DNA of 64,000 bases from a virus (taxonomy: Duplodnaviria; Heunggongvirae; Uroviricota; Caudoviricetes): positions 127,360 through 191,359 of the IMG/VR virus record IMGVR_UViG_3300013288_000004. One strand, written 5' to 3'. Below the pieces are notes generated by a model, which did not search any database, had not been told where the DNA came from, and saw only the letters and a program-made list of their open reading frames with translations. Positions 12,597 through 50,585 of the stretch are shown in pieces. The position numbers and the translations under genes are program-made. Every line of letters begins with the position of its first letter. The first letter of the stretch is position 1.

Positions 12597-12618
12597 AAAT
12601 TATCCATGATATTTTGTA

Positions 12619-13658: not shown

Positions 13659-13783
13659 AGGACCATGTTGGAATCGAACCAACCTAATGCTGCTTACTTT
13701 TGGTGATTTCAGATTTGAACTGATCAGAGCCTAAAACTCTTACACCCACAGGCAGCCGTAATACCCAGACATACCAATGATCC
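13659..13783 (-). tRNA. putative tRNA-His(GTG) interrupted by a ~51-nt intervening sequence at the canonical 37/38 anticodon-loop position
   Basis: Minus strand: GGATCAT-TG-GTA-(D loop with GG)-TAC-G-GCTGC-CTGTGG-[51 nt]-A-GCAGC-ATTAG-GTTGG-TTCGATT-CCAAC-ATGGTCC-T. Acceptor and anticodon stems pair only if the 51 nt are removed. Folded by eye. Confidence 0.4.
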
Positions 13784-13799
13784 ATATAATATTATTTTG

Positions 13800-13897
13800 C
13801 AGACCGGCAGGGACTTGAACCCCGATCATCAGTTTTCCTAAATATTCTTTTACAAAAACATTTAGGAGACTGGTATGCTGCCATTGCACCACCGATC
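13800..13897 (-). tRNA. tRNA-like sequence with ~30-nt palindromic insert (CCTAAAT...ATTTAGG); anticodon uncertain
   Basis: Acceptor GATCGGT/GCCGGTC (2 GU), T-arm CGGGG-TTCAAGT-CCCTG; length ~98 nt. Confidence 0.3.
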
Positions 13898-14004
13898 TAT
13901 ATTACTTTATTTATTCCATTCTACAGTAGCATTTTTTGCAAAACCTGTAAATGGCATCTTTATGCAAACGCTTTTAATTCACGTTCTCTAGCTATTCTTT
14001 CCAT

Positions 14005-14055
14005 TTCTTCTAATTCTTCTAATTCTTCTAATTCTTCTAATTCTTCTAATTCTTT
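14005..14055. repeat. hexanucleotide tandem repeat (TTCTAA)n, ~8 units
   Basis: Direct inspection; minus strand would encode a small (ELE)n peptide. Confidence 0.8.
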
Positions 14056-14094
14056 AGCTGAGACAACAATTATTTCCATAATTTTATTTAATTT

Positions 14095-14170
14095 TGGCGA
14101 GGACAGATGGATTCGAACCACCATTTCACAATTTTAACATCATGCGTAATTCCAAATGTGGTGAATGCAT
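14095..14170 (-). tRNA. tRNA-like 3' portion (T-arm GGTGG-TTCGAAT-CCATC, acceptor 3' strand TGTCCTC, encoded GCCA); 5' half not identifiable
   Basis: Complementary 5' acceptor strand GAGGACA not found within 300 nt. Confidence 0.3.
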
Positions 14171-14304
14171 TCTACTCACGCGTTATACGACATCCCCATT
14201 TCTTGTATCATACACAACTTATTTAGTGTTGTCAGCTATGTTTGATTTCAGTGTTTTGAACTATTTTATGTTCACGTTGATAAATACTTAAAAAGGATAA
14301 CAAA

Positions 14305-19618: not shown

Positions 19619-20848
19619 TCAATGCCAATAATGACATAACTTAGGTTTTGTGTCAAGTGAAATTTTCACTGACAAGGGCCAACTACATGCCTCTATCGGA
19701 TCAATTTTTACATCTCCGACTGCTTTTCTCATAATATTATATGCGCCATTGACATCTGCATTTATTTCTAAATCAAGACATTTGTCTTTATAAATTCCTC
19801 TGGTTTTTCTATATCCAGAAAATTTCATGTCATCCGTCTTCTCTCCATATGTCGGAATCATATCATTACTCAAACATGATGCCTTTGATGTATAGCTCTC
19901 TTCCTGACAAATGACATTAATTCCTCTTGATTCGGCTTTATATGTCAACATTTGTTTCAATTTATTGAATGGCACTGACACAAAATTTTGATTATTTTTC
20001 TTTCCGATGTTTATCTCTTGTTTCCAACCTTTATTTTCACCGATTATTAAGGTGTTTATTTGGTTGAAATCTAATTGATTAATAAGCCACGTACTTGCTT
20101 TATGTAAATAATCACGAATTTTGTCATTTCTTTTTCTAGAAATGGCGTTGATTCTATTACTTGTCTTTCTTTTGTCTCCTAATTTTGATTGTAGTTCTGC
20201 TTTTCTTTTATTATAATATTGGTTTATAGCTTTCAATGGTTTTCCATTTATTAAAAATGGTTTCATGACATTTGACGCTGTTGCTACTAAATTACTTAAA
20301 CCGATATCAACGGACAAATAACGACTATTGTCACTTCTTTTGTCTTCTATATCTGTCAAATATATCACTTCTATATCAAAATGATTGCTTCTCGGAACAA
20401 CTCTAACCTGTTGTATATCTGTTTTTTCTGTCTTTATAAAGATGTCATAACCAGATAATTTTACATATCCAGGTTTAACGAAAGATAATGCCTGATTAGT
20501 GAAAATTGTCACATATTTACCTGATTTGTCTAGGTAATTTGGTATACGTACCTTGTCATTTTTCTTTGCTTTCAACAAAGCAAAGAATGATCTAAAATTT
20601 TGATCAACCAATTTTAAGGTCTGTTGTGACACTTTTCTAGGTAATTGCTGGTAATCTATATTAGTTTTTGCGAAATCACCAGCTAATTTTGAATAGCCGA
20701 TGTATGTTTTTGTGGAGAAAAAATGCTGACGAATGGCATACAAAGATGCATTATACAAGTTTTTGGACTTGTGAGTCAGATCACACAAGTCACTAAAATA
20801 ATGACTTGTGCGACATATGGCATGCTTTTCTACACGTCTAGCTTTCAT
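19619..20848 (-). CDS. tnpB: IS607-family TnpB (OrfB) RNA-guided endonuclease
   Basis: 409 aa; RuvC-I LSVDIGLSNL, RuvC-II LIIGENKGW, RuvC-III INADVNGAYNI; zinc-finger cysteines reduced (only 2 Cys); 4-nt overlap with tnpA. Confidence 0.85.
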   Translation of the reverse strand: MKARRVEKHAICRTSHYFSDLCDLTHKSKNLYNASLYAIRQHFFSTKTYIGYSKLAGDFAKTNIDYQQLPRKVSQQTLKLVDQNFRSFFALLKAKKNDKVRIPNYLDKSGKYVTIFTNQALSFVKPGYVKLSGYDIFIKTEKTDIQQVRVVPRSNHFDIEVIYLTDIEDKRSDNSRYLSVDIGLSNLVATASNVMKPFLINGKPLKAINQYYNKRKAELQSKLGDKRKTSNRINAISRKRNDKIRDYLHKASTWLINQLDFNQINTLIIGENKGWKQEINIGKKNNQNFVSVPFNKLKQMLTYKAESRGINVICQEESYTSKASCLSNDMIPTYGEKTDDMKFSGYRKTRGIYKDKCLDLEINADVNGAYNIMRKAVGDVKIDPIEACSWPLSVKISLDTKPKLCHYWH

Positions 20849-21411
20849 GCAGCTTCCAAGGATTGGATCAGCTTTTCGGTCTGTCGCTTGGACCTACGCA
20901 ATCCATACAACCGGGCTGTAAAAGATGTGACAAGTGACACGAAATCTTGCATTAAATCTTCTTTTTCGTCCTGAACCGGATTGATGACCTCAATCTTTCT
21001 GTCAGAAACAGCCAGCAATTTCTCGATGTAATTGGTGCCGAAACGGGCTAATCGATCTTTGTGTTCCACAACAATCAAGTCAATGTCTTTATCTATTAAA
21101 AGCGACTCAAGTTTTGGTCTGTTGTCATTTAAACCAGAACCAATTTCTGTGACAATCTTCTCTATTTTGTATCCTTTGGCATTGCAATAAGACACAACTC
21201 GATCTTTTTGTCTATCAAGATTATCTTTGTTTTCTGTACTCGAAACTCGGGCATAAACAGCGACTTTTGTCTCTTTATTGACATCAAGTAAGATGCGAAC
21301 CCTGCCAGTTTGTGTATGTTCTATTTGTAGTTCGTTATTTTTGATCCAGCGCCATACTGTGCGCTGGCTCACACCTTTCATTTTTGCATATTCAGATATT
21401 TTTATTCTCAT
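20845..21411 (-). CDS. tnpA: IS607-family TnpA serine recombinase (MerR-like HTH + resolvase catalytic domain)
   Basis: 188 aa; N-terminal IKISEYAKMKGVSQRTVWRWIKNN HTH; catalytic YARVSS...DRQ...VVEHKDRLAR serine recombinase blocks. Confidence 0.85.
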   Translation of the reverse strand: MRIKISEYAKMKGVSQRTVWRWIKNNELQIEHTQTGRVRILLDVNKETKVAVYARVSSTENKDNLDRQKDRVVSYCNAKGYKIEKIVTEIGSGLNDNRPKLESLLIDKDIDLIVVEHKDRLARFGTNYIEKLLAVSDRKIEVINPVQDEKEDLMQDFVSLVTSFTARLYGLRRSKRQTEKLIQSLEAA

Positions 21412-23243: not shown

Positions 23244-23680
23244 TTTGGATTTCCCATATATGTTTTAAGTAGTTTAAGAGTTCTTGTGACAAAGTTCATC
23301 GACTTAGGGCAACCATCATACCAATCCTTAACCACATCTGTCAAACCATCAATTAGAATTTTTTCTTTTGAAACGCCAGATTCTGACTCTATCTTCATAT
23401 TTTGTTGTAAAAGTTTTAGCAATGCTATGTCAGCCTCGTATGTTTCTTTAAGAGCCTGCTTCAATTCTTCGCCAATATCTTTGGCTATGATCAAATCCAT
23501 CTTCATCTCAAGCTTGCGTAAAATTGAATCACTTATTATCAAATCATGTAAATTATCCTCGGCATAACCAGAAGGATAAAGATCAGAACGATATGATGGG
23601 GGGACTTGATCGTCAGGGATTTCTATAATTATGCGCATGGTGGGTTTTTGGTTATGGAGGTTGTAAAGGCATGTTCGCAC
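23237..23680 (-). CDS. hypothetical protein
   Basis: 147-aa ORF. Confidence 0.45.
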   Translation of the reverse strand: MRTCLYNLHNQKPTMRIIIEIPDDQVPPSYRSDLYPSGYAEDNLHDLIISDSILRKLEMKMDLIIAKDIGEELKQALKETYEADIALLKLLQQNMKIESESGVSKEKILIDGLTDVVKDWYDGCPKSMNFVTRTLKLLKTYMGNPKC

Positions 23681-24469
23681 AAAAAAGGAATAATGTCAAC
23701 GAACTCGTATAAATACTTAAAAAGGAGAGTTCGAATGCCAAAACCAAGAACGTCAGTAATATGGTTAATACCTAGAGAAGATTTACAAAACATGATAGAC
23801 ACAAGTAGTTCTATCGTAGAAGTTTTAGAGAAGTTAGGATTTAATGGTTACAACGGGAACCATAGGACACTGACACGGAGGATCAGTGTGGAGTCAATTA
23901 ATACCGAACAAATGAAATTAAACTATAAAGAATATAGAAAAGCACGCATAGATTGTACTCATAATATACACAATGTTTTTGTTACTGGTTCTAAGACGAG
24001 TAGAAAAACAATTAAAAAGATACTAACAGAAAATAATCTATTAGCTTACAAATGTTCTGAATGTGATAATAATGGAAGTCATAATGGCAAACCATTAATC
24101 TTGCAATTAGAGCACATTAATGGGATTAATGATGACAATAGATTAGAAAATTTATGTTTTCTTTGTCCTAACTGTCACAGCCAAACTACTACATTTTCTG
24201 GTCGAAATTCCAAACGTCCGAAGAATGACAAGCGGAAGAGCTATGAATCAGCAGAGAAAAAGGCCATCAGGACTCAAAATATGAGAAAGTTTAACGTCAC
24301 TAAAGAGGAATTGACAGAATTGATCATAAACCATTCAATGGTGTCTTTGGGTGAGAAGTTTGGTGTCAGTGACACGGCAATTAAGAAAAGATGTAAGCGG
24401 TTGGGGATAGATTTAGATTTGAGAAAATATAAAAAATTGGAGCGGGCGATGGGAATCGAACCCACCTAA
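23606..24469 (+). CDS. HNH homing endonuclease (3' end of ORF runs into tRNA-Gly; true stop may be earlier by frameshift or read-through)
   Basis: 287 aa; LEHINGINDDNRLENLCFLCPNCHSQT HNH core; C-terminal region with HTH-like VSLGEKFGVSDTAIKKRCKRLG. Confidence 0.7.
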   Translation: MIVRDFYNYAHGGFLVMEVVKACSHKKGIMSTNSYKYLKRRVRMPKPRTSVIWLIPREDLQNMIDTSSSIVEVLEKLGFNGYNGNHRTLTRRISVESINTEQMKLNYKEYRKARIDCTHNIHNVFVTGSKTSRKTIKKILTENNLLAYKCSECDNNGSHNGKPLILQLEHINGINDDNRLENLCFLCPNCHSQTTTFSGRNSKRPKNDKRKSYESAEKKAIRTQNMRKFNVTKEELTELIINHSMVSLGEKFGVSDTAIKKRCKRLGIDLDLRKYKKLERAMGIEPT

Positions 24470-24720: not shown

Positions 24721-25470
24721 ATGAATTATATATCAAAAGAAGATTTACAAGAGGCGATCAATGCCAGTACATCAAAAGCCGAGTGTTTTAATTTTCTAGG
24801 TTTACACACTACTAGCAATTACTCTTATAAGTCATTAAATTATTATATAAAGTTATATGATTTAAATATAGATAAGTTTACAAATAATAAAATAGGGAAA
24901 AATAACATTAAAATAAATCTAAAAGATATATTGGATGGGAAATATCCATCATACACAACATCTAAACTAAGAGTGCGATTAATTAAAGAGAATATATTCT
25001 CTCATCAATGCTCTATATGTTCATTAACTGAATGGAACGATAAACCAATACCATTGGATTTAGATCATATAAATGGAGATCCAACAGACCATCGACTAGA
25101 AAATATAAGATTATTATGTAGGAATTGTCACGCACAGACTAGTAACTTCTGCGGAGCAAATGTCAAAAAGAGATCAGTTAAGATAAAACCAGAAAGACCT
25201 AAAAAGATAAAACCCGAAATAATCCGAAAAGAAATATACAATTATAGGACGGGAGAACTAACAACAAAAATAAAAGATGATATGGAAATAATTAAAAACT
25301 GTGATATTGATTTTACAAAATATGGATGGGTGACAAAATTAGCCACATTACTTGGTAAGAAACCTCAGAAAATCAATAGATGGATGAAGAAATATATGCC
25401 AGAAATTTTAGAAAAATCATTTCAAAAATCTAATAATTTGGCAGCGGTAGATGGAATCGGACCACCATAG
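24721..25470 (+). CDS. HNH homing endonuclease (3' end overlaps tRNA-Gln)
   Basis: 249 aa; LDLDHINGDPTDHRLENIRLLCRNCHAQT HNH core. Confidence 0.7.
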   Translation: MNYISKEDLQEAINASTSKAECFNFLGLHTTSNYSYKSLNYYIKLYDLNIDKFTNNKIGKNNIKINLKDILDGKYPSYTTSKLRVRLIKENIFSHQCSICSLTEWNDKPIPLDLDHINGDPTDHRLENIRLLCRNCHAQTSNFCGANVKKRSVKIKPERPKKIKPEIIRKEIYNYRTGELTTKIKDDMEIIKNCDIDFTKYGWVTKLATLLGKKPQKINRWMKKYMPEILEKSFQKSNNLAAVDGIGPP

Positions 25471-33406: not shown

Positions 33407-33430
33407 GCATAAGACGATATGTCAAGAACG

Positions 33431-33460
33431 AAAAAGGCCAGCGCAAGCTGGCCTTTTTCT
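33431..33460. terminator. rho-independent terminator hairpin (bidirectional)
   Basis: AAAAAGGCCAGC-GCAA-GCTGGCCTTTTT perfect 8-bp GC stem flanked by A/T runs; ends the minus-strand tRNA array. Confidence 0.6.
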
Positions 33461-33597
33461 GAATCACAATAAGTTGCTAAAATGGTTCGAATAGCTTTCG
33501 CTATTTTGTCCGGGTTTGAACCAGACTCGCGATCCGATGATTAAGTCGAACGTTTCTCCAAGGTAAACCAGATTAATCGACTGTGAAAAAAAACTGA

Positions 33598-33683
33598 GGA
33601 CAGTGTGGGATTCGAACCCACGGCCCCTTTCGGAGCTTCACTTTTCAAGAGTGACGTGATAAACCTGACTCCACCAACCGTCC
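33598..33683 (-). tRNA. tRNA-Ser(TGA), type II with long variable arm
   Basis: GGACGGT-TG-GTGG-AGTCAGGTTTAT-CAC-G-TCACT-CTTGAAA-AGTGA-[AGCTCC-GAAA-GGGGCC]-GTGGG-TTCGAAT-CCCAC-ACTGTCC-T. Confidence 0.8.
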
Positions 33684-33726
33684 GTAATACATTACCAGTA
33701 AGTTATCAACAATCAAATGCGAACCG

Positions 33727-33800
33727 ACGCTAGTGTTGGATTCGAACCAACTAATTCCCAAATTTTTGGCGGGAAGATAATGATCATCTATCGACTGATA
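33727..33800 (-). other. tRNA-like unit c: T-arm GTTGG-TTCGAAT-CCAAC + acceptor 3' strand; upstream leader with CAGTCGATAGATGATCATTATCTT; no 5' acceptor partner found
   Basis: Direct inspection; member of a repeated promoter-leader-tRNA-like family. Confidence 0.25.
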
Positions 33801-33937
33801 AATTCAAAATTATTGTAGTAAGTTATTCGTAAGGAATTATGGGCACGCGGCCCAATTCACCAATTGAAAGATAATCCTTAGCAGATCGACTACAAATTCT
33901 ATTTATATGTTTGCCAATAAGTTTTAGTAAAAGTTTT

Positions 33938-34022
33938 GGTGCCATACCCAAGGTGGGATTCGAACCCACAGTCTTTTTTAAGATAATCTTCTACAAATCG
34001 ACTGACAATTTTATTCTATTTA
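33938..34022 (-). other. tRNA-like unit d: TATAAATA, CAGTCGATT, AGATTATCTT leader, perfect T-arm GTGGG-TTCGAAT-CCCAC, ...GGCACCA 3' end; no 5' acceptor partner
   Basis: Direct inspection. Confidence 0.25.
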
Positions 34023-34098
34023 TACATGTTCAAGTAAGTTAAACAATGAAAGATGTTTTGACGGCTGGCTAACCACTTGCCTACCAGTTCTATTTCTA

Positions 34099-34180
34099 GT
34101 ACCCGGATGGGATTCGAACCCACGTGCTGCTGTTTGCTTGATAACCTTTACATCTTCGACTTAAACAATTTTATTCTATT
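34099..34180 (-). other. tRNA-like unit e: upstream TAAATAGAAT + AAGTCGAAG motif, T-arm GTGGG-TTCGAAT-CCCAT; no 5' acceptor partner
   Basis: Direct inspection. Confidence 0.25.
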
Positions 34181-34189
34181 TAGTACATT

Positions 34190-34402
34190 CTACACTTTTG
34201 TTTTCTTGTTGTCAACTACTTCAATCCGTTCCAACATATCAATCCACCATTGTGGGTCTTTTGTTTCGCGCCATCTACCGTATGGTCCACAACCCCATTG
34301 ACATGCACATCTTGGCCATGCTCCATGTTTCTTAACAAATTCCACAATCCACTTTTCGGTTTCATCTATTGATTTACCGCAGTTACGATCACAATACAGC
34401 AT
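34190..34402 (-). CDS. hypothetical Cys/Trp-rich protein
   Basis: 70-aa ORF; CDRNC...CACQWGC. Confidence 0.4.
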   Translation of the reverse strand: MLYCDRNCGKSIDETEKWIVEFVKKHGAWPRCACQWGCGPYGRWRETKDPQWWIDMLERIEVVDNKKTKV

Positions 34403-34403
34403 A

Positions 34404-34589
34404 TCAATATGTTTTCCTTGGCCAATCCAAATCCTCTGCGATTAGCCTAGCATGTTCGATAGAATCTGCCAATACCGTTTTCCAGTTTCTACCCCAATGA
34501 CTATCTAGTCCACCTTGAGAAACAAAGAAGTCATACTCTTTTACAAAATATTTACCACCATCATTTTTAAATACTTTATACTTATCCAT
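34404..34589 (-). CDS. hypothetical protein
   Basis: 61-aa ORF. Confidence 0.4.
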   Translation of the reverse strand: MDKYKVFKNDGGKYFVKEYDFFVSQGGLDSHWGRNWKTVLADSIEHARLIAEDLDWPRKTY

Positions 34590-34603
34590 AATGTACTCTA
34601 ATT

Positions 34604-34679
34604 TGGAGTCTCGTGAGAGAATCGAACTCCCCTAAAATCCGGGTTGCAATCGGATACATAGCCACTCTGTCAACGAGAC
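34604..34679 (-). tRNA. tRNA-Cys(GCA)
   Basis: GTCTCGT-TG-ACAG-...-TCCGA-TTGCAAC-CCGGA-TTTTAG-GGGAG-TTCGATT-CTCTC-ACGAGAC-T-CCA; anticodon GCA with U33/A37; one A.C mismatch in anticodon stem, 6-nt variable loop. Confidence 0.55.
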
Positions 34680-34776
34680 ATTATTAATTCAGTAAGTTTT
34701 ATTGACGGTTATGGGAGTTTTCATAATAGTTGATAACCCATAGTTGTCCTTCGACTGAATATTCTTACAATTCTAT

Positions 34777-35127
34777 TTATGTTTTCTTAAAGTGCTTTTT
34801 AAGCACGTCAATCATGTTGCTATTATTAAAAACAACACCTAATACATAAGATGCTACAGTTCTTCCAGTTTCAATTGGACCGTCCCACGATTTATAAGCA
34901 AAACCATACGGTTCTCCCCATTCTTCAAGTAAGACCTTTTTAGCATCTTCAAATTCATCATCATTAAATTTCCAGACATTAGCATCAACAATGATACCAT
35001 TGTTCCAATTTATAATTACGTATTCTTTCTCTGGATCATCGTTTCTAAGTAAATTAAATGCGATAGCCATGATGGTCTCAATAACGCTTAATCGTAATTT
35101 TTGGCTTAGTACTAATTTCAATTTCAA
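34777..35127 (-). CDS. hypothetical protein
   Basis: 116-aa ORF. Confidence 0.45.
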   Translation of the reverse strand: MKLKLVLSQKLRLSVIETIMAIAFNLLRNDDPEKEYVIINWNNGIIVDANVWKFNDDEFEDAKKVLLEEWGEPYGFAYKSWDGPIETGRTVASYVLGVVFNNSNMIDVLKKHFKKT

Positions 35128-37815: not shown

Positions 37816-38841
37816 ATGCATTGGGTACTACAGGAAAATTTGTTTAACGAACAAGGATTTAGGGACGCTCTGGACGTTTTTGAAAGGTTTAAGATACCAT
37901 ATTCTTTACATAAGGTTGTGCCGTTTGTTGGTGAGCTAGAGCCTGACATTAGTCCAGATGACAATGTGATCTGCATGGGTTCTTACTCTATGCGCCACAT
38001 TGCTAAGAAGAAGGGTTGGTATCCCGGTGTGTTCGATCTAGAACCAGTTAATTTTAATGAACAAATGAAGCATTGGGGAAAGCACATGCTCAATGCTGAT
38101 GCTGTTGTGTCAAGATTTGCTGATGCTAAGATTGTAACAGGAAAAGCATTCCTACGTCCAATTGAAGATTCCAAAGTATTTGCTGGAAAAGTATTTACAG
38201 ATCAAGAACTTACAGAATGGCAGCATAGTATCATTACTATGGGAGATGACTATGGTTCTTCTATGAATGGTGACACACTGATACAAGTATGCCCGGTCAA
38301 GGAAATCTACGCAGAGTATAGATACTGGGTTGTGGACGATAAAATCGTAACCAAGTCCATGTATAAGCGTGGTGGGACGGTTCATTACTCCAGTGACGTT
38401 GATCATCGATTTGATAAGTTTGTGTCATCACTAACTTCTGGACCGTTTTCAGTAGATTATTGGCGACCGCATGATGCATACGTGATAGACGTTTGTGACA
38501 CACCAGATGGTATCAAGGTGGTCGAATTGAATACACTCACAAGCGCGGGGTTCTATGCGGCCAATATGACAGACCTAATCATGGCACTAGAAGATAAGTT
38601 TAGTAGAAAAGAACCTAGAAAAGATATTGGCGGTATTATTACTTATAAAGTGCAACGCAGTATGGATAAAGGATTCTTTTATTGTCCATATAACCCATTT
38701 GTGCCAGTTGTAGAAAAGTTACCAGAACCTGAGCCTCCAACTCAAGAGATGATAACTATGTGGATTGATGGTGTTAAAAACAATGATCCACAGAAAGATG
38801 CTTATATAGAATTGTTGAAAAAACTCCCACCATTCAGTTAA
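37816..38841 (+). CDS. ATP-grasp domain protein
   Basis: 341 aa; FLRPIEDSKVFAGKVF, EYRYWVVDDKIV, VIDVCDTPDGIKVVELNTLTSAGFY blocks typical of ATP-grasp ligases. Confidence 0.6.
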   Translation: MHWVLQENLFNEQGFRDALDVFERFKIPYSLHKVVPFVGELEPDISPDDNVICMGSYSMRHIAKKKGWYPGVFDLEPVNFNEQMKHWGKHMLNADAVVSRFADAKIVTGKAFLRPIEDSKVFAGKVFTDQELTEWQHSIITMGDDYGSSMNGDTLIQVCPVKEIYAEYRYWVVDDKIVTKSMYKRGGTVHYSSDVDHRFDKFVSSLTSGPFSVDYWRPHDAYVIDVCDTPDGIKVVELNTLTSAGFYAANMTDLIMALEDKFSRKEPRKDIGGIITYKVQRSMDKGFFYCPYNPFVPVVEKLPEPEPPTQEMITMWIDGVKNNDPQKDAYIELLKKLPPFS

Positions 38842-44342: not shown

Positions 44343-44368
44343 AAAAGGGCCAATTTGGCCCTTTTTCT
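44343..44368. terminator. bidirectional rho-independent terminator
   Basis: AAAAAGGGCCAA-TT-TGGCCCTTTTT between convergent genes. Confidence 0.6.
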
Positions 44369-45611
44369 ATTCATAATTTCTAAGTAGAAACTTGTTGCAT
44401 GTTTTTGGAAAACAAGTATCATTATCCTCTGTTAAGAACCAAAACCATTTTTCTGGAATCTTTGGGGTAACTGTTGTTCCCAAACCATCAGTAATAATAA
44501 AAACACCTTCTGGATAAGAATCAAAATCTTTCAGAACTGATTCTTCAATAATTCTAAAACAAGTACCACCTCCCATTGGCAACCTATTTTTATTCAAATC
44601 TATTTCGTGCACATAAGTTGAAAAACAAAAAAACCTAACATCAAATTTATCCAGCGGGACACTTTTTGCGGCATCGTAGAAACGTTGGGCGTAACTATGG
44701 CAAGACCCGGAAGTATCTAGATAAAATGCTATACTAATTCTTTCTTTCTTCTTTTTATCCATATCCGCTATTGTTGGTAAAAAGAAATTACTATCCAATG
44801 TTACAAATCTTCTATTCTTTCTAGCCCACTGATAGTATTCATTTTCCGTAACCTTTAATTTAGATTTCACCCATTTATGTATAACAGTTTCCCACTTCTT
44901 CTTTTTAACTACTTTCTTATTTTCTAACTCCTTTACAACAAATACATAAGCAGACCCTGCTTGTTTTTTGTTAGAATTGTTTACGGAATCTAAAGCCTCT
45001 TTTAGTTGCTCTAATTCTGATTCATCCATCCCGTCGATCATTTCTTGAATTACTTTATCTGATACAATAAACCAGTCGGAATGATCGTCAAGCATATTAC
45101 CGCCAGAACGTCCTTGCGGTCCATTCCCTTGTTCATCTGTTTCAGCATCTTTTACTAACAAATTATAATAATATTCCATAGTCATTCCATATGGTACATT
45201 TTTGTCAGGAAAAGCATTATCAAGCCACCAACCTCCGATATCCAATTCTTCCTTGATAAATTTATAAAATCTAACAAGAGTTTCGTTCACACATATATCA
45301 GCAGCTATATTCATCAATTCTTTGTTGAATTCTGGTAAACTTAGCATTCCATATAATCTTGGTAGATGCGAGAGCATCACATGCATACATTCATGGCTAA
45401 TCAAGAATAATTTTTGCAATTTATTCATCTGACTCCAAAAAGTTGGATTAATTGTCAATAAAATGTGTTCCCGAGATTCATCCGTTGCAGACACTCCAAG
45501 TGTTGGTACACTATCACTAAATTGTACGTAGCTCATGTTAAGGAATGTATAGTACATATTCCCATATGGTTGTAGACCGCGTAATAATTCTAATTTCTCT
45601 TCCAATTCCAT
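44367..45611 (-). CDS. VWA-domain protein with N-terminal HExxH metallopeptidase-like motif (CobT-like / DUF2201-like partner of the AAA ATPase)
   Basis: 414 aa; HECMHVMLSH zincin-like motif; C-terminal AFYLDTSGSC (VWA MIDAS DxSxS) ... ITDGLGT. Confidence 0.65.
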   Translation of the reverse strand: MELEEKLELLRGLQPYGNMYYTFLNMSYVQFSDSVPTLGVSATDESREHILLTINPTFWSQMNKLQKLFLISHECMHVMLSHLPRLYGMLSLPEFNKELMNIAADICVNETLVRFYKFIKEELDIGGWWLDNAFPDKNVPYGMTMEYYYNLLVKDAETDEQGNGPQGRSGGNMLDDHSDWFIVSDKVIQEMIDGMDESELEQLKEALDSVNNSNKKQAGSAYVFVVKELENKKVVKKKKWETVIHKWVKSKLKVTENEYYQWARKNRRFVTLDSNFFLPTIADMDKKKKERISIAFYLDTSGSCHSYAQRFYDAAKSVPLDKFDVRFFCFSTYVHEIDLNKNRLPMGGGTCFRIIEESVLKDFDSYPEGVFIITDGLGTTVTPKIPEKWFWFLTEDNDTCFPKTCNKFLLRNYE

Positions 45612-45672: not shown

Positions 45673-48303
45673 ATGGCTACAATAGAAGATAAATTAAAAT
45701 TTGCTGCGAAGAATGAACTAAATGTCATGCTGATCGGGCATGCTGGAGTTGGAAAAACTTCAATAGTTAAAAACATATTCGAAGAACTTGGATTAAAGTA
45801 TCTGTACTACTCAGCTTCTACCATGGACCCATGGGTAGATTTTGTTGGAGTCCCGCACGAAGTAACTGGAGAAGACGGTGTAAAATATCTCGACCTAGTT
45901 CGTCCTAAAGCATTCGCATATGATGATGTTGAAGCTATCTTTTTGGATGAATATAATAGATGCATCAGTGGTGATACCAAAATTCTGTTAGCCGATGGTA
46001 CATCAGAAGCTGTTAAGGATTTAGTCGGTAGAGAACATTTTTATGTGTATTCTTTTGACACCAAAAACAAAAGTATAGAAATTGCAAAAGCACATTCTGC
46101 TAGAATTACCGTCAGAAACGAAAACTTACTAAAAATAACATTAGATAATGGCGCATCATTCAAATGTACAAAAGATCACCCTATATTAAGAATAACTGGA
46201 GAATTTGACTTAGCTGAGAATTTTTCAGTCAACGATTCTCTAATGCCGTGCTATCGTTTCTGGAAACAAACCGGATATGAATATATAATGCAACCACAAG
46301 GAAAGAAATGGGAATTAACGTATCTTTTGGCTGATTTATACAACTTAAGAAATAATATTTATAAAATTGATGATGGTGAGCATCGTCATCATGTAGATTT
46401 TGACAAACATAATAATTCACCAGAAAATATATTGAGATTAACAGAATCTGCGCACATGTCTCTCCATGCCAATCATGATGAGAAATCTATTATGGGTGGT
46501 AGAATGGCGCATAAAATTCACCCGGACTTGTATGCAAGGACAATAGGCACCGAGGAAAGTAGGAAAAAAATGAAAGAACGGTCGGCATTGGTAAGAAAAA
46601 CTTGTCCAAAATATAAAGCGAAGCGCTCTATCGCAAGCAAAAAAATGTATACTCAAGAGATGAGGGATTATCGTGCGGAAGTAACCAAAAAACAATGGCA
46701 AACTGAACAATTTAAGAATATAGACAGAAAGGCTTCCTTAGAAAGAAATCATCTATCTAGAGTATTAAACTTTCTCACGGATAATAATATAAACATCGGC
46801 GAATTGACCGAAGAAAACTATAAAAATGCTTACTTGGAAAGAAGTAGAAATAAAAGACGACTGCCAATGAAACATTCTACCATAATAACAAAATTTTCAG
46901 ATTTTGAAAATTTCAAAAAAATACTATTGGAATTTCAATCAGCTAAAAAAAATGGTAATCATAAAATAATAAAAATCGAAGAAGTTGATGCTGAAGATAC
47001 TTACGATATTACGGTTGATGAATTTGAGAATTTTGCCCTAGAGTGTGGAATTTTTGTTCATAATTCACCAATCAAGGTAAGGAACGCTGTTATGGAATTG
47101 ATACAATTCAAATCCATCAATGGTAAAAAATTCAATAATCTAAAACTGGTTTGGGCCGCAATAAATCCTAGTGATGAGGATGATACAGGAAAAACATATG
47201 ATGTTGAAGCTCTTGACCCGGCACAATTAGATCGTTTCCATTTTCACATTGAAATGCCTTATGCTTTAAATAAAAAATATTTCAAATCAAAATACCCAGA
47301 GTATGTAGATGCTGTTCTTGAATGGTGGAATGCTCTACCAAAACCACAAAAGAATTTAGTATCTCCTAGACGTGTTGACATGGCTTTAAGCGTTCTCAGA
47401 AATGGCGGTGATCTAAATTGGATATTACCAAATAATGTAAACTGTAAAGAATTGGTAGACATTCTAGATAATGGAACATTTTCCGCTAGAGTGGGCAATT
47501 GTTTTGAAGAAAAGAATGAAGAAAAAACTAAGAATTTATTGACTGACAATGACAAAACTCTTAGCAAATACATGAAGTGTATATTCCAAAAGAATGAATA
47601 TATTGAATATTTCATGCCATTCATCACTGATGAACAAATGATGAGCATGATAACCAACAACAATAAACCCGTCATAGATTATGTGTCACGAGCAGATATT
47701 GCCGTAACTCGTGAAAAATTGTTAAGTAGCATAGTAAAAGCTAAATCAGTGAAAAAGGATTTGTTGGACAAATTCAACAATGTATTAAAAGTCATTAGAC
47801 AATCAAAACAAAAAATAGATGTTACGTCTAATGTTGCGCATTTACCCTCCGAATCTTTGTGTATAGGTAAAAATGAAAATAGTCATATTGATTTAGAATC
47901 AAATCGTGACTGGCTAGATTTTTATCATAGGATTACATCAACTAGATATGTTCCAAATACATACGACAGGAAAAAAGTCTTTTTGGCGCTTACTGATATG
48001 GGTGGTGCTATCTATGATTATAAAATGCCAGAAAAAACAGAATTAATCGGTAATATATTTGATTGTGCTGTTTCTATAATAAAAAGTACTTATAATATTG
48101 TGCATGGCAAAGAAAACTTAATATATTTAATTAAAATTATGAATTCGTGTGATGTAATTTTATCAGAACACAATATAGATATATTCGCCTTAATGAAAAA
48201 GAAAACAGATAGAATAGACAAAGCGTTAAAAGTAATAGAACAAGAACAATCGTGCTATGATATGTTAAATTCAAAATTCAAGGACTATCATGATAATTTA
48301 TAA
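45673..48303 (+). CDS. MoxR/CobS-like AAA+ ATPase (AAA_5) interrupted by an HNH-containing intein
   Basis: 876 aa; Walker A LIGHAGVGKTS, Walker B IFLDEYNR immediately followed by Cys (intein start CISGDTKILLADG); extein resumes ...VHN|SPIKVRNA; sensor region AQLDRF. Confidence 0.8.
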   Translation: MATIEDKLKFAAKNELNVMLIGHAGVGKTSIVKNIFEELGLKYLYYSASTMDPWVDFVGVPHEVTGEDGVKYLDLVRPKAFAYDDVEAIFLDEYNRCISGDTKILLADGTSEAVKDLVGREHFYVYSFDTKNKSIEIAKAHSARITVRNENLLKITLDNGASFKCTKDHPILRITGEFDLAENFSVNDSLMPCYRFWKQTGYEYIMQPQGKKWELTYLLADLYNLRNNIYKIDDGEHRHHVDFDKHNNSPENILRLTESAHMSLHANHDEKSIMGGRMAHKIHPDLYARTIGTEESRKKMKERSALVRKTCPKYKAKRSIASKKMYTQEMRDYRAEVTKKQWQTEQFKNIDRKASLERNHLSRVLNFLTDNNINIGELTEENYKNAYLERSRNKRRLPMKHSTIITKFSDFENFKKILLEFQSAKKNGNHKIIKIEEVDAEDTYDITVDEFENFALECGIFVHNSPIKVRNAVMELIQFKSINGKKFNNLKLVWAAINPSDEDDTGKTYDVEALDPAQLDRFHFHIEMPYALNKKYFKSKYPEYVDAVLEWWNALPKPQKNLVSPRRVDMALSVLRNGGDLNWILPNNVNCKELVDILDNGTFSARVGNCFEEKNEEKTKNLLTDNDKTLSKYMKCIFQKNEYIEYFMPFITDEQMMSMITNNNKPVIDYVSRADIAVTREKLLSSIVKAKSVKKDLLDKFNNVLKVIRQSKQKIDVTSNVAHLPSESLCIGKNENSHIDLESNRDWLDFYHRITSTRYVPNTYDRKKVFLALTDMGGAIYDYKMPEKTELIGNIFDCAVSIIKSTYNIVHGKENLIYLIKIMNSCDVILSEHNIDIFALMKKKTDRIDKALKVIEQEQSCYDMLNSKFKDYHDNL
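45961..47064 (+). other. intein (368 aa) with HNH homing-endonuclease domain
   Basis: N-terminal Cys + block A ISGDTKILLADG; internal HRHHVDFDKHNNSPENILRLTESAHMSLH (HNH); C-terminal block G FVHN followed by Ser. Confidence 0.75.
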
Positions 48304-48789: not shown

Positions 48790-49326
48790 ATGAATAAATC
48801 GGTATCAGATTTTGACAAAGATGTCTATAATAAAATCAGAAATAATATAGATCATTTTCTTAGTGGACAAGCTAAAACCCACAATAATGGATCTTTACAA
48901 TTATTGGACATTGCCCCGCAAATTCATGCTGGCGCAAAAAAATATTTCACCAAGTGTGATATAGACACTGCTGACATAGATCCAAAATCTAATGCTAACT
49001 ACATAGTGGACATATGTGAAAATAACTCCCACATTATCTCCAATAATGTATTTGATATAATCGTATGCACTGAAGTATTAGAGCATACTCTGAATCCATT
49101 CTCTGCTGTTTCCGAATTACATAGAATGCTTAAAATAGGTGGAAGACTTTTATTATCAACTCCGTTTGACTTCAGAATACATGGCCCTCTACCAGATTGC
49201 TGGAGGTTCACCGAGCATGGATTGCGTGCTTTGTTAAAAGATTTCAAATCTGTGGAAATTACACCACTAGAAAATGAAAATAGATTCTTGATGCCATATC
49301 ACTATACTACGGTAGCAATAAAGTGA
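48790..49326 (+). CDS. class I SAM-dependent methyltransferase
   Basis: 178 aa; LLDIAP (motif I), DIDP (acidic loop), IIVCTEVLEH, LKIGGRLLLS. Confidence 0.7.
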   Translation: MNKSVSDFDKDVYNKIRNNIDHFLSGQAKTHNNGSLQLLDIAPQIHAGAKKYFTKCDIDTADIDPKSNANYIVDICENNSHIISNNVFDIIVCTEVLEHTLNPFSAVSELHRMLKIGGRLLLSTPFDFRIHGPLPDCWRFTEHGLRALLKDFKSVEITPLENENRFLMPYHYTTVAIK

Positions 49327-50585
49327 AGAATGTATTGGTTTTTCCCTGCGGTTCTGAAATAGGACTGGAAATAAATCGTGCTTTGAAATATTCCAAACAT
49401 TTTAAAGTGTTTGGAGCATCAAGCGTAAATGATCATGGTAAATTCGAATTTGATAATTATGCAGATGGTGTTCCTAACGTTTCCGATGATAATTTCATTG
49501 ATCATATCAATTATCTAGTAAAACAATATAACATAGACTTTATATTTCCTGCTCATGACTCCGTAGTGGTTAAAATGATAGAAGAACAACATCGTTTATC
49601 TGCAACAGTCATAACCTCTGATAAAGAAACATCACAAATATGCAGGTCAAAATCAAGAACATATGATGTTTTTAAGGGATTATTACCAGTACCAAAAACA
49701 TATGATGTTGATGGTGGAATACGATTTCCTACTTTCTTAAAACCGGATGTAGGACAAGGTGCTAAAGGTACATACAAAGTAGCTAACTACAAAGATATAA
49801 AATTTTACGTAGAAAAAGACCCATCATTATTAATTCTAGAATATCTACCCGGAAGAGAATACACGGTTGATTGTTTTACTAATCGACACGGACAATTGAT
49901 ATTCTCTGAAGGTAGGGAACGCGGCAGAATAAACAACGGTATTAGTGTAAATTCCAAGAAAACTATAAATCATAAATTCACAGAACTGGCAGAAATAATA
50001 AATTCGAGATTAAAATTTCGTGGGGCATGGTTTTACCAACTGAAAGAACGGTCTGATGGAGAATTGGTTCTAATGGAAATTTCTCCAAGAATAGCCGGAA
50101 CAATGGAACTATTCAGAAACTATGGAATAAATTTTGCGCAATTAAGTTTGTTTGATAGAATGGGAATTGACGTGTCCATAATCAACAACAATATAGATTT
50201 AGAAATAGACAGGTCATTATCCGCCAAGTATAAAATGACTTATGAATATAACCACGTGTATATTGATTTAGATGATACTATCTTAATAAATGATAAAATA
50301 AATTCAAACGTCATGAAATTTCTATATGAGTGTATTAACAATCATAAGAAGATTCATTTATTGACAAAACATAGGCATGACGTGGAACATACATTATGTA
50401 ATAATTATATTGACATCAATATGTTCACTACTATTAACCAAATAAGTCAATTCGACCATAAACCCGATTTTATAATTCATAAAGATTCGATTTTTATAGA
50501 CGATTCTTTTGCGGAAAGAAAGAGAGTGTCAGATAATGTGGGGATTCCCGTATTTGACGTTGATGCTATTGACTGCTTGATGTAA
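49323..50585 (+). CDS. ATP-grasp enzyme fused to C-terminal HAD-like phosphatase domain
   Basis: 420 aa; ATP-grasp blocks FLKPDVGQGAKG, EYLPGREYTVDCF, LMEISPRIAG; C-terminal YIDLDDTIL (HAD motif I DxDxT) and HLLTKHRHD. Confidence 0.6.
   Translation: MKNVLVFPCGSEIGLEINRALKYSKHFKVFGASSVNDHGKFEFDNYADGVPNVSDDNFIDHINYLVKQYNIDFIFPAHDSVVVKMIEEQHRLSATVITSDKETSQICRSKSRTYDVFKGLLPVPKTYDVDGGIRFPTFLKPDVGQGAKGTYKVANYKDIKFYVEKDPSLLILEYLPGREYTVDCFTNRHGQLIFSEGRERGRINNGISVNSKKTINHKFTELAEIINSRLKFRGAWFYQLKERSDGELVLMEISPRIAGTMELFRNYGINFAQLSLFDRMGIDVSIINNNIDLEIDRSLSAKYKMTYEYNHVYIDLDDTILINDKINSNVMKFLYECINNHKKIHLLTKHRHDVEHTLCNNYIDINMFTTINQISQFDHKPDFIIHKDSIFIDDSFAERKRVSDNVGIPVFDVDAIDCLM

What the first reader, a model, noticed from the sequence alone, without database searches (positions are those of the whole stretch)
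33431..34780. Array of tRNA and tRNA-like units sharing a conserved promoter-leader (TATAAATA ... YAGTCGA ... ATTATCTT)
Between the terminator at 33431 and about 34780 the minus strand carries tRNA-Ser(TGA), tRNA-Cys(GCA) and at least four further units. Each further unit begins with TAAATAGAAT (reverse complement contains TATAAATA or a one-off variant), then about 10 nt, then (C/T)AGTCGA(T/A), then a leader containing (A/G)GATTATCTT or GGTTATCAA. Units c, d and e (33727-33800, 33938-34022, 34099-34180) continue into a perfect T-arm plus acceptor 3' strand but lack any complementary 5' acceptor strand. Another unit (33860-33910) ends in a GGGC-CGCGT-GCCC hairpin instead. These look like independently promoted small RNAs, some of them tRNA 3'-half mimics. 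They could be processed tRNA fragments, decoys for host anticodon nucleases or CCA-adding enzyme, or split or degenerate tRNAs.
Basis: seen in the sequence. Interest (0 to 1): 0.65.

Follow-up and report, generated by a model that had tools for sequence, protein, structure and literature searches.

The report
Phage array of Y RNA-like genes
The "tRNA-like units" are six tandem genes for small structured RNAs built like Y RNAs, the partners of the Ro60 RNA-quality-control protein. They sit in a jumbo-phage tRNA region with no Ro60 gene within about 40 kb, which is unusual for this RNA class.

Summary
On the minus strand of 33464-34760 lie tRNA-Cys, tRNA-Ser and six complete small-RNA units (74-137 nt), not tRNA halves.

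Every unit has the same frame:
- a 7-bp stem formed by its own 5' and 3' ends
- GUCGA(A/U) right after the 5' strand
- a second helix followed by UUAUC
- (A)AACUU right before the 3' strand

Between these parts sits a variable module. It is a plain hairpin in u1 and u4. In u2, u3, u5 and u6 it is a tRNA-elbow mimic with a T arm.

This frame matches that of Y RNA-like RNAs (YrlA/YrlB type). Those RNAs lie in arrays of 3-9 just upstream of Ro60 (TROVE) genes in many viral contigs. A DNA pattern taken from our units found Ro60 loci in 26 of 44 other IMG/VR hits. A covariance model trained only on Ro-linked RNAs recovers four of our six units with exact ends, although each hit alone is weak.

Helices covary across the units and against a 315-kb relative phage. 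Rfam's YrlA and Y_RNA models do not reach threshold. No Ro60-like gene lies in the window or within about 9 kb beyond it.

Verdict: a new member, possibly a Ro-unlinked variant, of the Y RNA family.

The parts
34770..34781 (-). CATAAATAGAAT, a 7/8 match to the T4-type late promoter TATAAATA, 9 nt upstream of u1
   Evidence: Promoter role is inferred.
34687..34760 (-). u1: simple Y RNA-like unit (74 nt). Layout: P1 ATTCAGT/ACTGAAT, CGAAG, P2 ..ATGGG/CCCAT.., UUAUC loop, AAUAAAACUU.
   Evidence: Model R1 scores it 15.6 bits with exact ends; R2 scores it 10.6 bits.
34604..34679 (-). tRNA-Cys(GCA). The D stem is poorly paired, and the Rfam tRNA model does not detect it.
34190..34589 (-). Two small ORFs (61 aa and 70 aa) inside the array. 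A homologue of the 61-aa ORF is also present inside the relative's array.
34187..34215 (-). Sigma-70-like promoter TTGACA-17-TAGAAT (11 of 12 matches) upstream of u2
34173..34184 (-). ACTAAATAGAAT, a 7/8 late-promoter-like element before u2
34029..34165 (-). u2: YrlA-like unit (137 nt). Order: P1, CGAAG, P2, UUAUC, T arm, GNRA-capped 'acceptor-like' hairpin, UA, D-arm-like hairpin, AACUU, P1'.
   Evidence: The Rfam YrlA model aligns T/AS/D with high posterior but scores only 15.4 bits. R2 top hit in the window, 18.5 bits, E 0.075, exact ends. Covariation.
34013..34024 (-). TATAAATAGAAT: perfect late-promoter octamer before u3
33912..34007 (-). u3: Y RNA-like unit (96 nt) with a T arm followed by a small GG-containing hairpin
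33896..33907 (-). TATAAATAGAAT: perfect late-promoter octamer abutting u4
33813..33895 (-). u4: simple Y RNA-like unit (83 nt) with long P2 (UAAGGAUUAU/AUAAUUCCUUA) and an apical GGGC/GCCC hairpin
   Evidence: One search shows a compensatory G-C to A-U change. R1 scores it 12.1 bits and R2 10.7 bits, with exact ends.
33693..33800 (-). u5: Y RNA-like unit (108 nt). Order: P1, P2, UUAUC, V hairpin, T arm, ACUA, D-like hairpin GCG-UCGGUU-CGC. It has no promoter motif of its own.
   Evidence: One search shows 3 compensatory pairs.
33596..33683 (-). tRNA-Ser(TGA)
33464..33586 (-). u6: Y RNA-like unit (123 nt) with a T-arm-like hairpin (UUCAAAC loop) and a GAAA-capped hairpin. It directly follows tRNA-Ser.
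   Evidence: R2 scores it 8.9 bits with exact ends.
33430..33459 (.). Perfect 13-bp GC-rich hairpin flanked by A and T runs: an intrinsic terminator that closes the array
   Evidence: I5; terminator part of Thr_leader aligned.

Best explanation
The locus is a tandem array of six genes for Y RNA-like non-coding RNAs, interleaved with two tRNA genes in the tRNA/tmRNA region of a jumbo phage. u1 and u4 are simple, YrlB-like. u2, u3, u5 and u6 carry a tRNA-elbow mimic, YrlA-like.

Proposed mechanism:
1. Transcription (inferred). Each RNA comes either from its own T4-type late promoter (u1-u4) or from read-through of the sigma-70-like promoter at 34215. Transcription ends at the terminator at 33430-33459. 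The units are probably cut out together with the tRNAs.
2. Folding (shown by covariation). The 5' and 3' ends pair into a 7-bp stem. This stem continues, past a bulged C, into G.U and A-U pairs (GUCGA opposite ACUU), then into a second helix followed by UUAUC.
3. Protein binding (inferred). This bulged stem is the conserved docking site for a ring-shaped Ro60/Rsr (TROVE) protein, as in animal, bacterial and phage Y RNAs.
4. Partner recruitment (inferred). The variable distal module, a plain hairpin or a T-loop/D-loop tRNA mimic, recruits a second partner such as PNPase or tRNA-recognising enzymes. Different units would then tether Ro60 to different effectors, retuning RNA decay, repair or defence evasion late in infection.

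The Ro60 partner is not encoded near the array. It must be encoded elsewhere in the roughly 300-kb genome, or be the host's.
For: (1) Structure
- P1 is 97.4% paired across 13 distinct units. Five of its 7 pairs show compensatory changes, and 0 of 500 shuffles reach the observed covariation score.
- Against the orthologous units of a 315-kb relative (L093/L120), 154 predicted pairs are 134 unchanged, 12 changed on one side, 8 compensatory and 0 broken. Substitutions affect 9% of paired columns against 24% of unpaired columns.

(2) Published hallmarks of Y RNAs
- A 5'-3' stem, a GNCGAA(N0-1)G / CGAA motif at its inner end, YUAY, then V/T/AS/D arms (PMC4201824; PMC12135203).
- Our units have GUCGAAG (u1, u2) or GUCGAU (u3-u6) at positions 6-12, UUAUC after P2, and the T, AS, UA, D order in u2.
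- The Rfam YrlA consensus has AaAcUuG at the same 3' position as our AAACUU.

(3) Independent link to Ro60
- The composite motif GNCGAW-N5-13-GRTTAYC gives 38 hits in 14 of 18 Ro-encoding viral loci. Nearly all are on the Ro strand, mostly just upstream of Ro. Background is 10 hits in 1.2 Mb. In the window it gives 4 hits, all in the array.
- A whole-IMG/VR scan with a pattern taken from our units returned 44 other loci. Of these, 26 encode a TROVE protein in the fetched flank.
- A stricter version of the pattern in 596 Gb of bacterial genomes gave 31 hits, only 1 with Ro, as expected for chance.
- Ro-linked units fold like ours. Those of the AT-rich contig L188 are nearly superimposable on u1.

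(4) Covariance models trained only on Ro-linked RNAs
- R1 and R2 rank our units at the top of the window with exact unit ends.
- R1: u1 15.6 bits, u2 14.6, u4 12.1.
- R2: u2 18.5 bits (E 0.075), plus u4, u1 and u6. Four of the 8 hits at E<=10 are our units.

(5) Context. Phage Ro60 genes sit next to tRNA/tmRNA arrays that contain Y RNAs, for example Gordonia phage Boopy.
Against: - Rfam YrlA scores u2 at only 15.4 bits against a gathering score of 69. No unit matches Rfam Y_RNA.
- Hits of my own Ro-trained models are not individually significant (E 0.07-9).
- Four of six units have CGAU instead of CGAA.
- No TROVE, vWA_Ro60 or DUF2828/DUF7788 protein was found in the 64-kb window or in about 9.4 kb beyond each end, by Pfam, tblastn, a 3-sequence Ro HMM or phmmer. 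Known Y RNAs are almost always within a few kb of Ro60.
- Expression and Ro binding are untested.
Confidence: 0.7

Rival explanations
1. A Ro-independent family of tRNA-derived small RNAs. In this reading the 7-bp terminal stem acts as an acceptor-stem mimic, and the T/D elbow titrates or recruits tRNA-handling enzymes (RNase P, CCA-adding enzyme, TruB/Dus, tRNA-targeting defence nucleases). The resemblance to Y RNA reflects shared tRNA ancestry only.
For: - No Ro gene lies within about 83 kb.
- The stem is exactly 7 bp.
- The units sit inside a tRNA operon.
- One unit of the relative aligns end to end with the Rfam tRNA model at 22.5 bits, E 0.19.
- Bacterial YrlA is itself a substrate of RNase P, CCA-adding enzyme, TruB and DusA (PMC4201824).
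Against: - The conserved parts are the GUCGA / UUAUC / AACUU frame, not the tRNA-like parts. u1 and u4 have no T arm at all.
- That frame is statistically tied to Ro60 genes in independent viral contigs.
- No conserved anticodon arm and no encoded CCA.
Confidence: 0.17
2. Decayed, split or permuted tRNA genes: non-functional remnants, or halves joined in trans.
For: - Perfect T arms.
- Homing-endonuclease activity in the region. The relative carries an endonuclease-type ORF plus a duplicated tRNA-Cys 3' half.
- The window's own tRNA-Cys has a weak D stem.
Against: - Every unit is closed by its own covarying stem.
- There are 8 compensatory changes and 0 broken pairs against the relative.
- The 'acceptor 3' strands' pair locally.
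- Complementary 7-mers occur at chance frequency, and none lies beside a D arm.
- ARAGORN and Rfam find no tRNA.
Confidence: 0.03
3. Repeated regulatory DNA cassettes (promoter plus stem-loop, like the promoter-early stem-loop modules of T4-type phages, recalled from my own knowledge). In this reading the repeats matter at the DNA or transcription level and the RNAs have no function of their own.
For: TAAATAGAAT recurs before four units. TATAAATA behaves as a genuine promoter in this genome.
Against: - u5 and u6 keep the full RNA frame without the promoter motif.
- Conservation and covariation lie in the transcribed helices up to 130 nt downstream.
- No ORFs follow the promoters.
Confidence: 0.04

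Closest known systems
Bacterial and phage YrlA / YrlB Y RNAs (Rfam RF02553; Chen et al. 2014, PMC4201824)
   Same: - Terminal 5'/3' stem and a GNCGAA motif at its inner end.
- YUAY after the next helix, and an A-rich ...ACUU strand before the 3' stem.
- In u2, the V/T/acceptor-like/D order of a permuted tRNA mimic.
- Several different Y RNAs encoded in tandem, set among tRNA genes in phages.
   Different: - Below the Rfam threshold (15.4 against 69 bits).
- AT-rich, with (A/G)GUCGA(A/U) instead of GG(C/U)CGAAG.
- u3 and u5 join the T arm directly to a D-like hairpin, with no acceptor-like stem.
- No Ro60 gene within about 40 kb, whereas YrlA was defined as lying within 4 kb of Ro60 on the same strand.
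Ro-linked Y-like RNA arrays in uncultured phage contigs (e.g. L188 = IMGVR_UViG_3300018080_000113; also L155, L143, L194) and Gordonia phage Boopy
   Same: - Same frame, and the same mix of simple and tRNA-mimic units.
- 3-9 units in tandem, interleaved with tRNAs.
- One L188 unit (CCTAGGU-CGAAG-AUUAUGGG-UUAUU...CAAUAACUU-AUCUAGG) is nearly superimposable on u1.
   Different: Those arrays abut a TROVE/Ro60 gene; ours does not. No protein homology between those loci and this window beyond ORFs embedded in tRNA arrays.
Thermus phage phiLo Yrl1/Yrl2 with phage Ro60 (PMC12135203)
   Same: A phage-encoded stem-bulge-stem RNA with a CGAA motif just inside the 5'-3' stem. In that work each CGAA nucleotide contributes to Ro60 binding. 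The complex engages host PNPase.
   Different: There are two RNAs, directly upstream of the phage Ro60 gene, with binding shown experimentally. Here there are six RNAs, the partner is unknown, and most units read CGAU.
Metazoan Y RNAs (hY1, hY3, hY4, hY5; sequences recalled from memory, Rfam RF00019)
   Same: - A bulged-C helix, 5' GGUC-C-GA opposite 3' UU-GACC, preceded by AC.
- An upper stem ending in GGGUUAUC in hY4 and hY5, like u1.
   Different: No match to the Rfam Y_RNA model. One base pair fewer at the bulge. Bacteriophage context.
T4 species 1 and 2 stable RNAs (rnaC, rnaD) at the end of the T4 tRNA cluster
   Same: Stable small RNAs of unknown function, co-located with phage tRNA genes. 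rnaC carries a T arm.
   Different: No GUCGA / UUAUC / AACUU frame. Neither the regex nor model R2 (default filters) hits them.

Membership tests
Y RNA / YrlA-YrlB (Ro60-associated ncRNA) | The 5' and 3' ends pair to form a terminal stem | tested here: met
   7-bp P1 in all six units. 97.4% of cells paired; 5 of 7 P1 pairs have compensatory changes; 0 of 500 shuffles reach the observed score.
Y RNA / YrlA-YrlB (Ro60-associated ncRNA) | GNCGAA(N0-1)G / CGAA motif at the inner end of the 5' strand (the Ro60 contact) | tested here: met
   GUCGAAG in u1 and u2. GUCGAU in u3-u6, so the fourth base differs. Always at positions 6-12. Feature definition.
Y RNA / YrlA-YrlB (Ro60-associated ncRNA) | Stem-bulge-stem with a second helix followed by YUAY | tested here: met
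   P2 and UUAUC appear in MFE folds and in alifold of orthologues, including compensatory changes in P2 of u4 and u5. The same layout is seen in Ro-linked units.
Y RNA / YrlA-YrlB (Ro60-associated ncRNA) | tRNA-like domain: T arm, acceptor-like hairpin, UA, D arm (YrlA subclass) | tested here: met
   Complete in u2, where the Rfam YrlA alignment covers T/AS/D with high posterior. T arm plus a D-like hairpin without AS in u3 and u5. T arm plus a GNRA hairpin in u6. Absent in u1 and u4, which are YrlB-like.
Y RNA / YrlA-YrlB (Ro60-associated ncRNA) | Reaches the curated Rfam score (RF02553 YrlA 69 bits; RF00019 Y_RNA) | tested here: not met
   u2 scores 15.4 bits. Other units give no hit at E<=10, and there is no Y_RNA hit. 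For comparison, a genuine Ro-adjacent YrlA in phage Boopy scores only 52 bits.
Y RNA / YrlA-YrlB (Ro60-associated ncRNA) | Recognised by a model built only from Ro60-linked phage Y-like RNAs | tested here: inconclusive
   R1 and R2 place u1, u2, u4 and u6 among the top window hits with exact ends, but at E 0.075-9 each. The clustering is jointly very unlikely by chance. The models are GC-rich and our units are AT-rich.
Y RNA / YrlA-YrlB (Ro60-associated ncRNA) | Encoded within a few kb of a Ro60/Rsr (TROVE) gene on the same strand | tested here: not met
   No TROVE, vWA_Ro60 or DUF2828/DUF7788 protein in the window or in about 9.4 kb beyond each end. The rest of the genome could not be read.
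Y RNA / YrlA-YrlB (Ro60-associated ncRNA) | Physically bound by Ro60/Rsr | not testable with these tools
   Needs RIP or EMSA.
Canonical tRNA | Cloverleaf with a paired acceptor stem, D arm, anticodon arm and T arm | tested here: not met
   ARAGORN finds none. The Rfam tRNA model gives only a partial 18.3-bit match in u3 with the anticodon stem deleted.
Split or permuted tRNA | A separate 5' half complementary to the 3' acceptor strand | tested here: not met
   Complementary 7-mers occur at chance frequency and not beside D arms. The strands in question pair locally and covary.
T4-type late promoter | TATAAATA about 6 nt upstream of the transcript start | tested here: inconclusive
   Perfect copies precede u3 and u4; 7/8 matches precede u1 and u2. 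In this window, 10 of the 13 copies outside the array lie 10-26 nt upstream of an ORF start, against 3.6% background. No transcript data and no gp55-like factor were examined.

The most novel reading that the evidence does not exclude
The phage carries an 'orphan' Y RNA array with no Ro60 gene of its own. Six late-expressed Y RNA mimics (ten in the 315-kb relative) would capture the host's Rsr/Ro60. Alternatively they could work with no Ro protein at all. Either way they would act as sponges or re-targeting adaptors that disable or redirect the host's Rsr-PNPase/RtcB RNA-repair and decay response, or a defence system, during infection. That would be the first case of a virus using Y RNA decoys against a cellular Ro60 pathway.
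Probability: 0.3. Interest if true: 0.8.

Novelty: new member of a known kind. Interest (0 to 1): 0.6.

Why it matters
Y RNAs and Ro60 are conserved from bacteria to humans, where Ro60 is a lupus and Sjogren autoantigen. What they do in bacteria and phages is still poorly understood.

- **Missed by current tools.** This locus shows that jumbo phages can carry large, diverse sets of Y RNA-like genes that current RNA-family models miss and that tRNA finders ignore.
- **Widespread arrays.** In passing, multi-unit arrays (3-9) turned up next to phage Ro60 genes in many uncultured phage contigs (seen in dozens of loci). The few papers I checked describe one or two per locus.
- **A simple search signature.** Terminal stem, GNCGAW, N5-13, GRTTAYC ... 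ACUU, stem.
- **A testable question.** If the absence of a nearby Ro60 gene reflects a real absence, does a virus use Y RNA mimics to hijack a host Ro60 pathway?
- **Modular scaffolds.** The variety of distal modules on one common frame is a natural experiment in how Y RNAs act as modular tethers.

Tried and rejected
- **Loose promoter-plus-AGTCGA pattern on IMG/VR.** Almost all 119 loci were chance hits. Only L093 was a true relative.
- **blastn of the array against cultured phages.** It found only tRNA-Ser matches, so there is no close cultured relative.
- **Rfam at low thresholds on u1, u2 and the relative.** No family reached threshold.
- **nhmmer profile of the 31-nt 5' block of Ro-linked units.** Our units rank first, but at E 0.4-4. 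The block is too short and GC-biased to be significant alone.
- **Looking for Ro60.** All of these were negative or inconclusive:
  - Pfam on all ORFs of at least 400 aa and on neighbouring ORFs
  - PHROGs and NCBIfam on neighbouring ORFs
  - phmmer of neighbouring and large ORFs against PDB sequences
  - tblastn, HMM and phmmer with Boopy, Atu_ph07, pir03 and FelixO1 Ro-like proteins
  - window extensions
  - two IMG/VR scans with Ro queries that did not return the relative's 315-kb contig

- **Other phages with Ro or Ro-like genes.** Atu_ph07, pir03 and FelixO1 showed no units with our frame.
- **T4 rnaC/rnaD.** No shared frame.
- **Host inference.** No papers cite the sample accessions. The bacterial genome scan gave only chance-level hits.
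- **Relaxed stem scan (CGAW...YTT).** Too many chance hits in AT-rich DNA to be useful.
Full report
**What is there**

The window is AT-rich DNA (about 34% GC) from a jumbo phage. It carries many tRNAs, a two-piece tmRNA, two TnpB genes and an intein-containing ATPase. Its nearest cultured relatives by protein similarity are XacN1-like Xanthomonas and Stenotrophomonas jumbo phages and some Vibrio phages. The same phage occurs in several metagenomes. A related 315-kb IMG/VR contig, read here as L093 and L120, carries the orthologous locus.

On the minus strand between 34760 and 33464, ARAGORN finds only tRNA-Cys and tRNA-Ser. I also found a second boundary motif, AACTTAYT. It occurs six times here and alternates strictly with AGTCGA.

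The four bases before AGT are complementary to the four bases after AYT in every case. Each AGTCGA...AACTTAYT interval is therefore one unit closed by a 7-bp stem. The six units are:

| Unit | Coordinates (minus strand) | Length |
|---|---|---|
| u1 | 34687-34760 | 74 nt |
| u2 | 34029-34165 | 137 nt |
| u3 | 33912-34007 | 96 nt |
| u4 | 33813-33895 | 83 nt |
| u5 | 33693-33800 | 108 nt |
| u6 | 33464-33586 | 123 nt |

The relative has orthologues of all six plus four more, ten in total.

**These are structured RNAs under selection**

- Across 13 distinct units, the terminal helix plus the adjacent G.U and A-U pairs are 97.4% paired.
- Five of the seven P1 pairs show compensatory changes. The covariation score is 0.63, against 0.21 in shuffles (0 of 500 reach it) and at most 0.16 when the partners are slid.
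- Between the window and the relative, the consensus folds contain 154 pairs: 134 unchanged, 12 changed on one side, 8 compensatory and 0 broken.
- Substitutions hit 9% of paired columns against 24% of unpaired columns.
- The hairpin after the T arm of u2 has an entirely different sequence in the relative, yet still forms a GNRA-capped stem. That excludes the idea that it is an orphan acceptor 3' strand.

**Common anatomy**

Every unit follows the same order:
1. P1, a 7-bp stem
2. 5' CGA(A/U)N, in which C is bulged and GA can pair with the UU of ACUU
3. P2, about 8 bp, whose 5' strand ends in the G(G/A) of GRUUAUC
4. UUAUC, which opens a loop or multiloop
5. a variable module
6. the P2 3' strand
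7. an A-rich strand of about 8 nt ending in AACUU
8. the P1 3' strand

The variable module differs by unit:
- u1 and u4: a hairpin.
- u2: T arm, acceptor-like hairpin, UA, then a D-like hairpin.
- u3 and u5: V hairpin, T arm, then a D-like hairpin.
- u6: a T-arm-like hairpin plus a GAAA-capped hairpin.

**Identification as Y RNA-like**

The literature defines bacterial and phage Y RNAs by four features:
- a 5'-3' stem
- a GNCGAA(N0-1)G / CGAA motif that contacts Ro60
- a YUAY
- in YrlA, a permuted tRNA mimic in the order V, T, acceptor-like stem, D

These come from PMC4201824 and PMC12135203. Our units fit feature by feature.

The Rfam YrlA consensus also shows AaAcUuG immediately before the 3' strand of the terminal stem, where ours have AAACUU. 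The Rfam model aligns the T/AS/D core of u2 with high posterior probability. However, the score is only 15.4 bits against a gathering score of 69. No unit hits Y_RNA. Curated-model membership therefore fails.

**An independent test**

I fetched Ro60 genes from Gordonia phage Boopy, Agrobacterium phage Atu_ph07 and Vibrio phage pir03. I aligned them and retrieved 17 Ro-encoding IMG/VR loci.

*Same frame next to Ro60.* Orphan T loops in those loci, most of them just upstream of Ro on the same strand, turned out to sit inside RNAs with exactly our frame. An example is GACGAGC-CGAAU-GUUCUGGG-UUAUC...CCCAGAAC-AAUAACUU-GCUCGUC.

*Motif enrichment.* The composite motif GNCGAW-N5-13-GRTTAYC was written from our units plus the published motif.
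- It hits 38 times in 14 of 18 Ro loci. Nearly all hits are on the Ro strand, mostly just upstream of Ro.
- It hits 10 times in 1.2 Mb of unrelated viral loci.
- It hits four times in the window, all in the array.
- It does not hit T4, FelixO1, pir03 or Atu_ph07.

*Covariance models.*
- Model R1 was built from 12 small Ro-linked units only. It finds 50 units in the Ro loci, all on the Ro strand, in arrays of 3-5.
- With filters off, R1's best full-length hits in the window and the relative are our units with exactly my boundaries: L093 7362 at 17.0 bits, u1 at 15.6, u2 at 14.6 and u4 at 12.1.
- Model R2, rebuilt from the 50 Ro-linked hits, ranks u2 first in the window at 18.5 bits and E 0.075. 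It also lists u4, u1 and u6, so four of its eight hits at E<=10 are our units.
- Each hit alone is marginal, because the training set is GC-rich and our units are AT-rich. Four hits with exact ends inside 1.3 kb of a 128-kb search space is not a chance outcome.

*Whole-database scan.* A scan of all IMG/VR with GTCGAA-N7-12-GGTTATC-N15-45-GGTTCGA, taken from our u2-type units, returned 45 stretches. Besides the relative, 26 of 44 carry a TROVE ORF in the short fetched flank. Several of the rest belong to contigs that have Ro a few kb away. Arrays reach 7-9 units.

*Negative control.* A stricter version of the pattern, run on 596 Gb of bacterial genomes, gave 31 hits, which is about the chance expectation. 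Only one of them had Ro.

*Closest analogue.* The AT-rich contig L188 has Ro, at least 8 units and a tRNA. Its units are almost superimposable on u1.

I conclude that the units belong to the same RNA class as the Ro60-linked phage Y RNAs.

**What is unusual**

In the comparison loci the arrays abut Ro60. Here no TROVE, vWA_Ro60 or FelixO1-type DUF2828/DUF7788 protein is detectable in the 64-kb window or in about 9.4 kb beyond either end. The methods were Pfam, tblastn, a three-sequence Ro HMM with filters off, and phmmer.

The genes next to the array have no recognisable function. I could not read the remaining 200 kb or more of the genome. Two Ro-query scans of IMG/VR did not return the relative's contig, but those scans are capped and not exhaustive. 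Divergent Ro-like proteins are easy to miss: Pfam does not recognise the pir03 TROVE protein. Ro60 may therefore be encoded elsewhere in the phage, be supplied by the host, or be absent.

**Expression (inferred)**

TATAAATA behaves as a real promoter in this genome. Ten of the 13 copies outside the array lie 10-26 nt upstream of an ATG that opens an ORF, against 3.6% for random positions. Perfect copies precede u3 and u4, and 7/8 copies precede u1 and u2. They are placed so that a T4-type start about 6 nt downstream would fall at or just before P1.

A strong sigma-70-like promoter, TTGACA-17-TAGAAT, lies upstream of u2. A perfect 13-bp terminator hairpin closes the array at 33430-33459. u5 and u6 have no promoter motif and flank tRNA-Ser, so they must be processed from a longer transcript.

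**Mechanism proposed**

The conserved bulged stem docks a Ro60-type ring, as in Xenopus, Deinococcus, Salmonella and phage phiLo. The variable module recruits a second factor. Known precedents are:
- PNPase in RYPER complexes, and in phiLo, where the complex attenuates PNPase (PMC12135203).
- tRNA-recognising enzymes for YrlA (PMC4201824).
- A Ro60-like protein of phage Bas63, which lies just upstream of its tRNA array and counters the Ppl defence system (PMC11482910).

Six to ten different modules on one frame suggest several different tethers. All of this beyond the fold and the motif is inference.

**Rivals**

- A Ro-independent tRNA-mimic family remains possible, mainly because Ro is missing nearby.
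- Split or decayed tRNAs are rejected by the covariation data.
- Pure promoter cassettes are also rejected by the covariation data.

**Verdict**

It is wrong on the specific mechanism. This is best filed as a new, AT-rich member of the Y RNA (YrlA/YrlB-like) class. Existing models fail to annotate it, and it has a potentially interesting twist, namely no linked Ro60 gene.

Noticed in passing
window 5710-6948(-) and 19619-20848(-), with 20845-21411(-): Two TnpB (OrfB_IS605 / Cas12f1-like) genes. The second is paired with a serine resolvase, which is IS607-like. TATAAATA sits 18-22 nt upstream of the first TnpB and of the resolvase.
   Followed up: partly
window 61396-61752(-): Two-piece (permuted) tmRNA with tag ASNDEFFDVEYAQAA, next to a ClpP-like gene according to the metagenome gene calls.
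   Followed up: no
window 13660-14200(-): Three long tRNA-like genes (about 100-120 nt) with 7-bp acceptor stems and internal insertions. One has two T-arm-like hairpins. ARAGORN misses them. Rfam calls only 13800-13898, as a 99-nt tRNA.
   Followed up: partly
window 4045-4200(-) and 1790-1945(-): Two paralogous non-coding elements of about 150 nt (…AATACTACCCGGCTGAGAT…GGACCGGGTTCGTTATCACAATGTCAA…). Each lies upstream of a similar tRNA gene. No Rfam match at gathering level.
   Followed up: no
window 34604-34679(-); L093 6501-7355: The window's tRNA-Cys has an unpaired D stem, and the Rfam tRNA model does not detect it. In the relative, a different intact tRNA-Cys (61.8 bits) is followed by an opposite-strand ORF resembling a homing endonuclease, then by a leftover 3' half matching the window's tRNA-Cys apart from one base. 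This looks like gene replacement by homing. A GIY-YIG-like ORF also follows tRNA-Ser in the relative.
   Followed up: partly
L137, L143, L146, L148, L151-L157, L182, L188, L194 (Ro60-encoding phage loci): Arrays of 3-9 Y RNA-like units next to Ro60 genes are common in phage contigs. In Gordonia phage Boopy, at least 5 such units lie among the tRNA and tmRNA genes. The bona fide YrlA there overlaps a feature annotated 'tRNA-Leu'.
   Followed up: partly
L140 (Vibrio phage pir03) 6160-6470 and 8990-10750: Runs of annotated 30-aa 'hypothetical proteins' beside the TROVE gene look like unannotated non-coding RNA regions. The stretch upstream of TROVE contains a GAUCGAAUC motif. Pfam does not detect this TROVE protein.
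   Followed up: no
window 10000-12600: A GC-rich island (about 52% GC against 34%) holds a 595-aa ORF with no family match, preceded by TATAAATA.
   Followed up: no
window 45673-48303(+) and 44367-45611(-): An AAA ATPase interrupted by an intein, next to a DUF2201 metallopeptidase-type gene. ATP-grasp genes lie nearby at 37816-38841 and 49323-50585.
   Followed up: no
window 23606-24469(+) and 24721-25470(+): Plus-strand ORFs overlap minus-strand tRNA genes. They have homologues embedded in the tRNA and Y RNA arrays of Boopy (L137 5624-5914) and L194. They are probably mobile endonuclease-type genes.
   Followed up: no
L203 1-10000 (just beyond window position 64000): The precomputed Pfam marks show Acb1 and Acb2/Tad1-hairpin (anti-CBASS/Thoeris) genes, an NAD-dependent DNA ligase split by a DUF723 gene, and PhoH immediately outside the window.
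   Followed up: no
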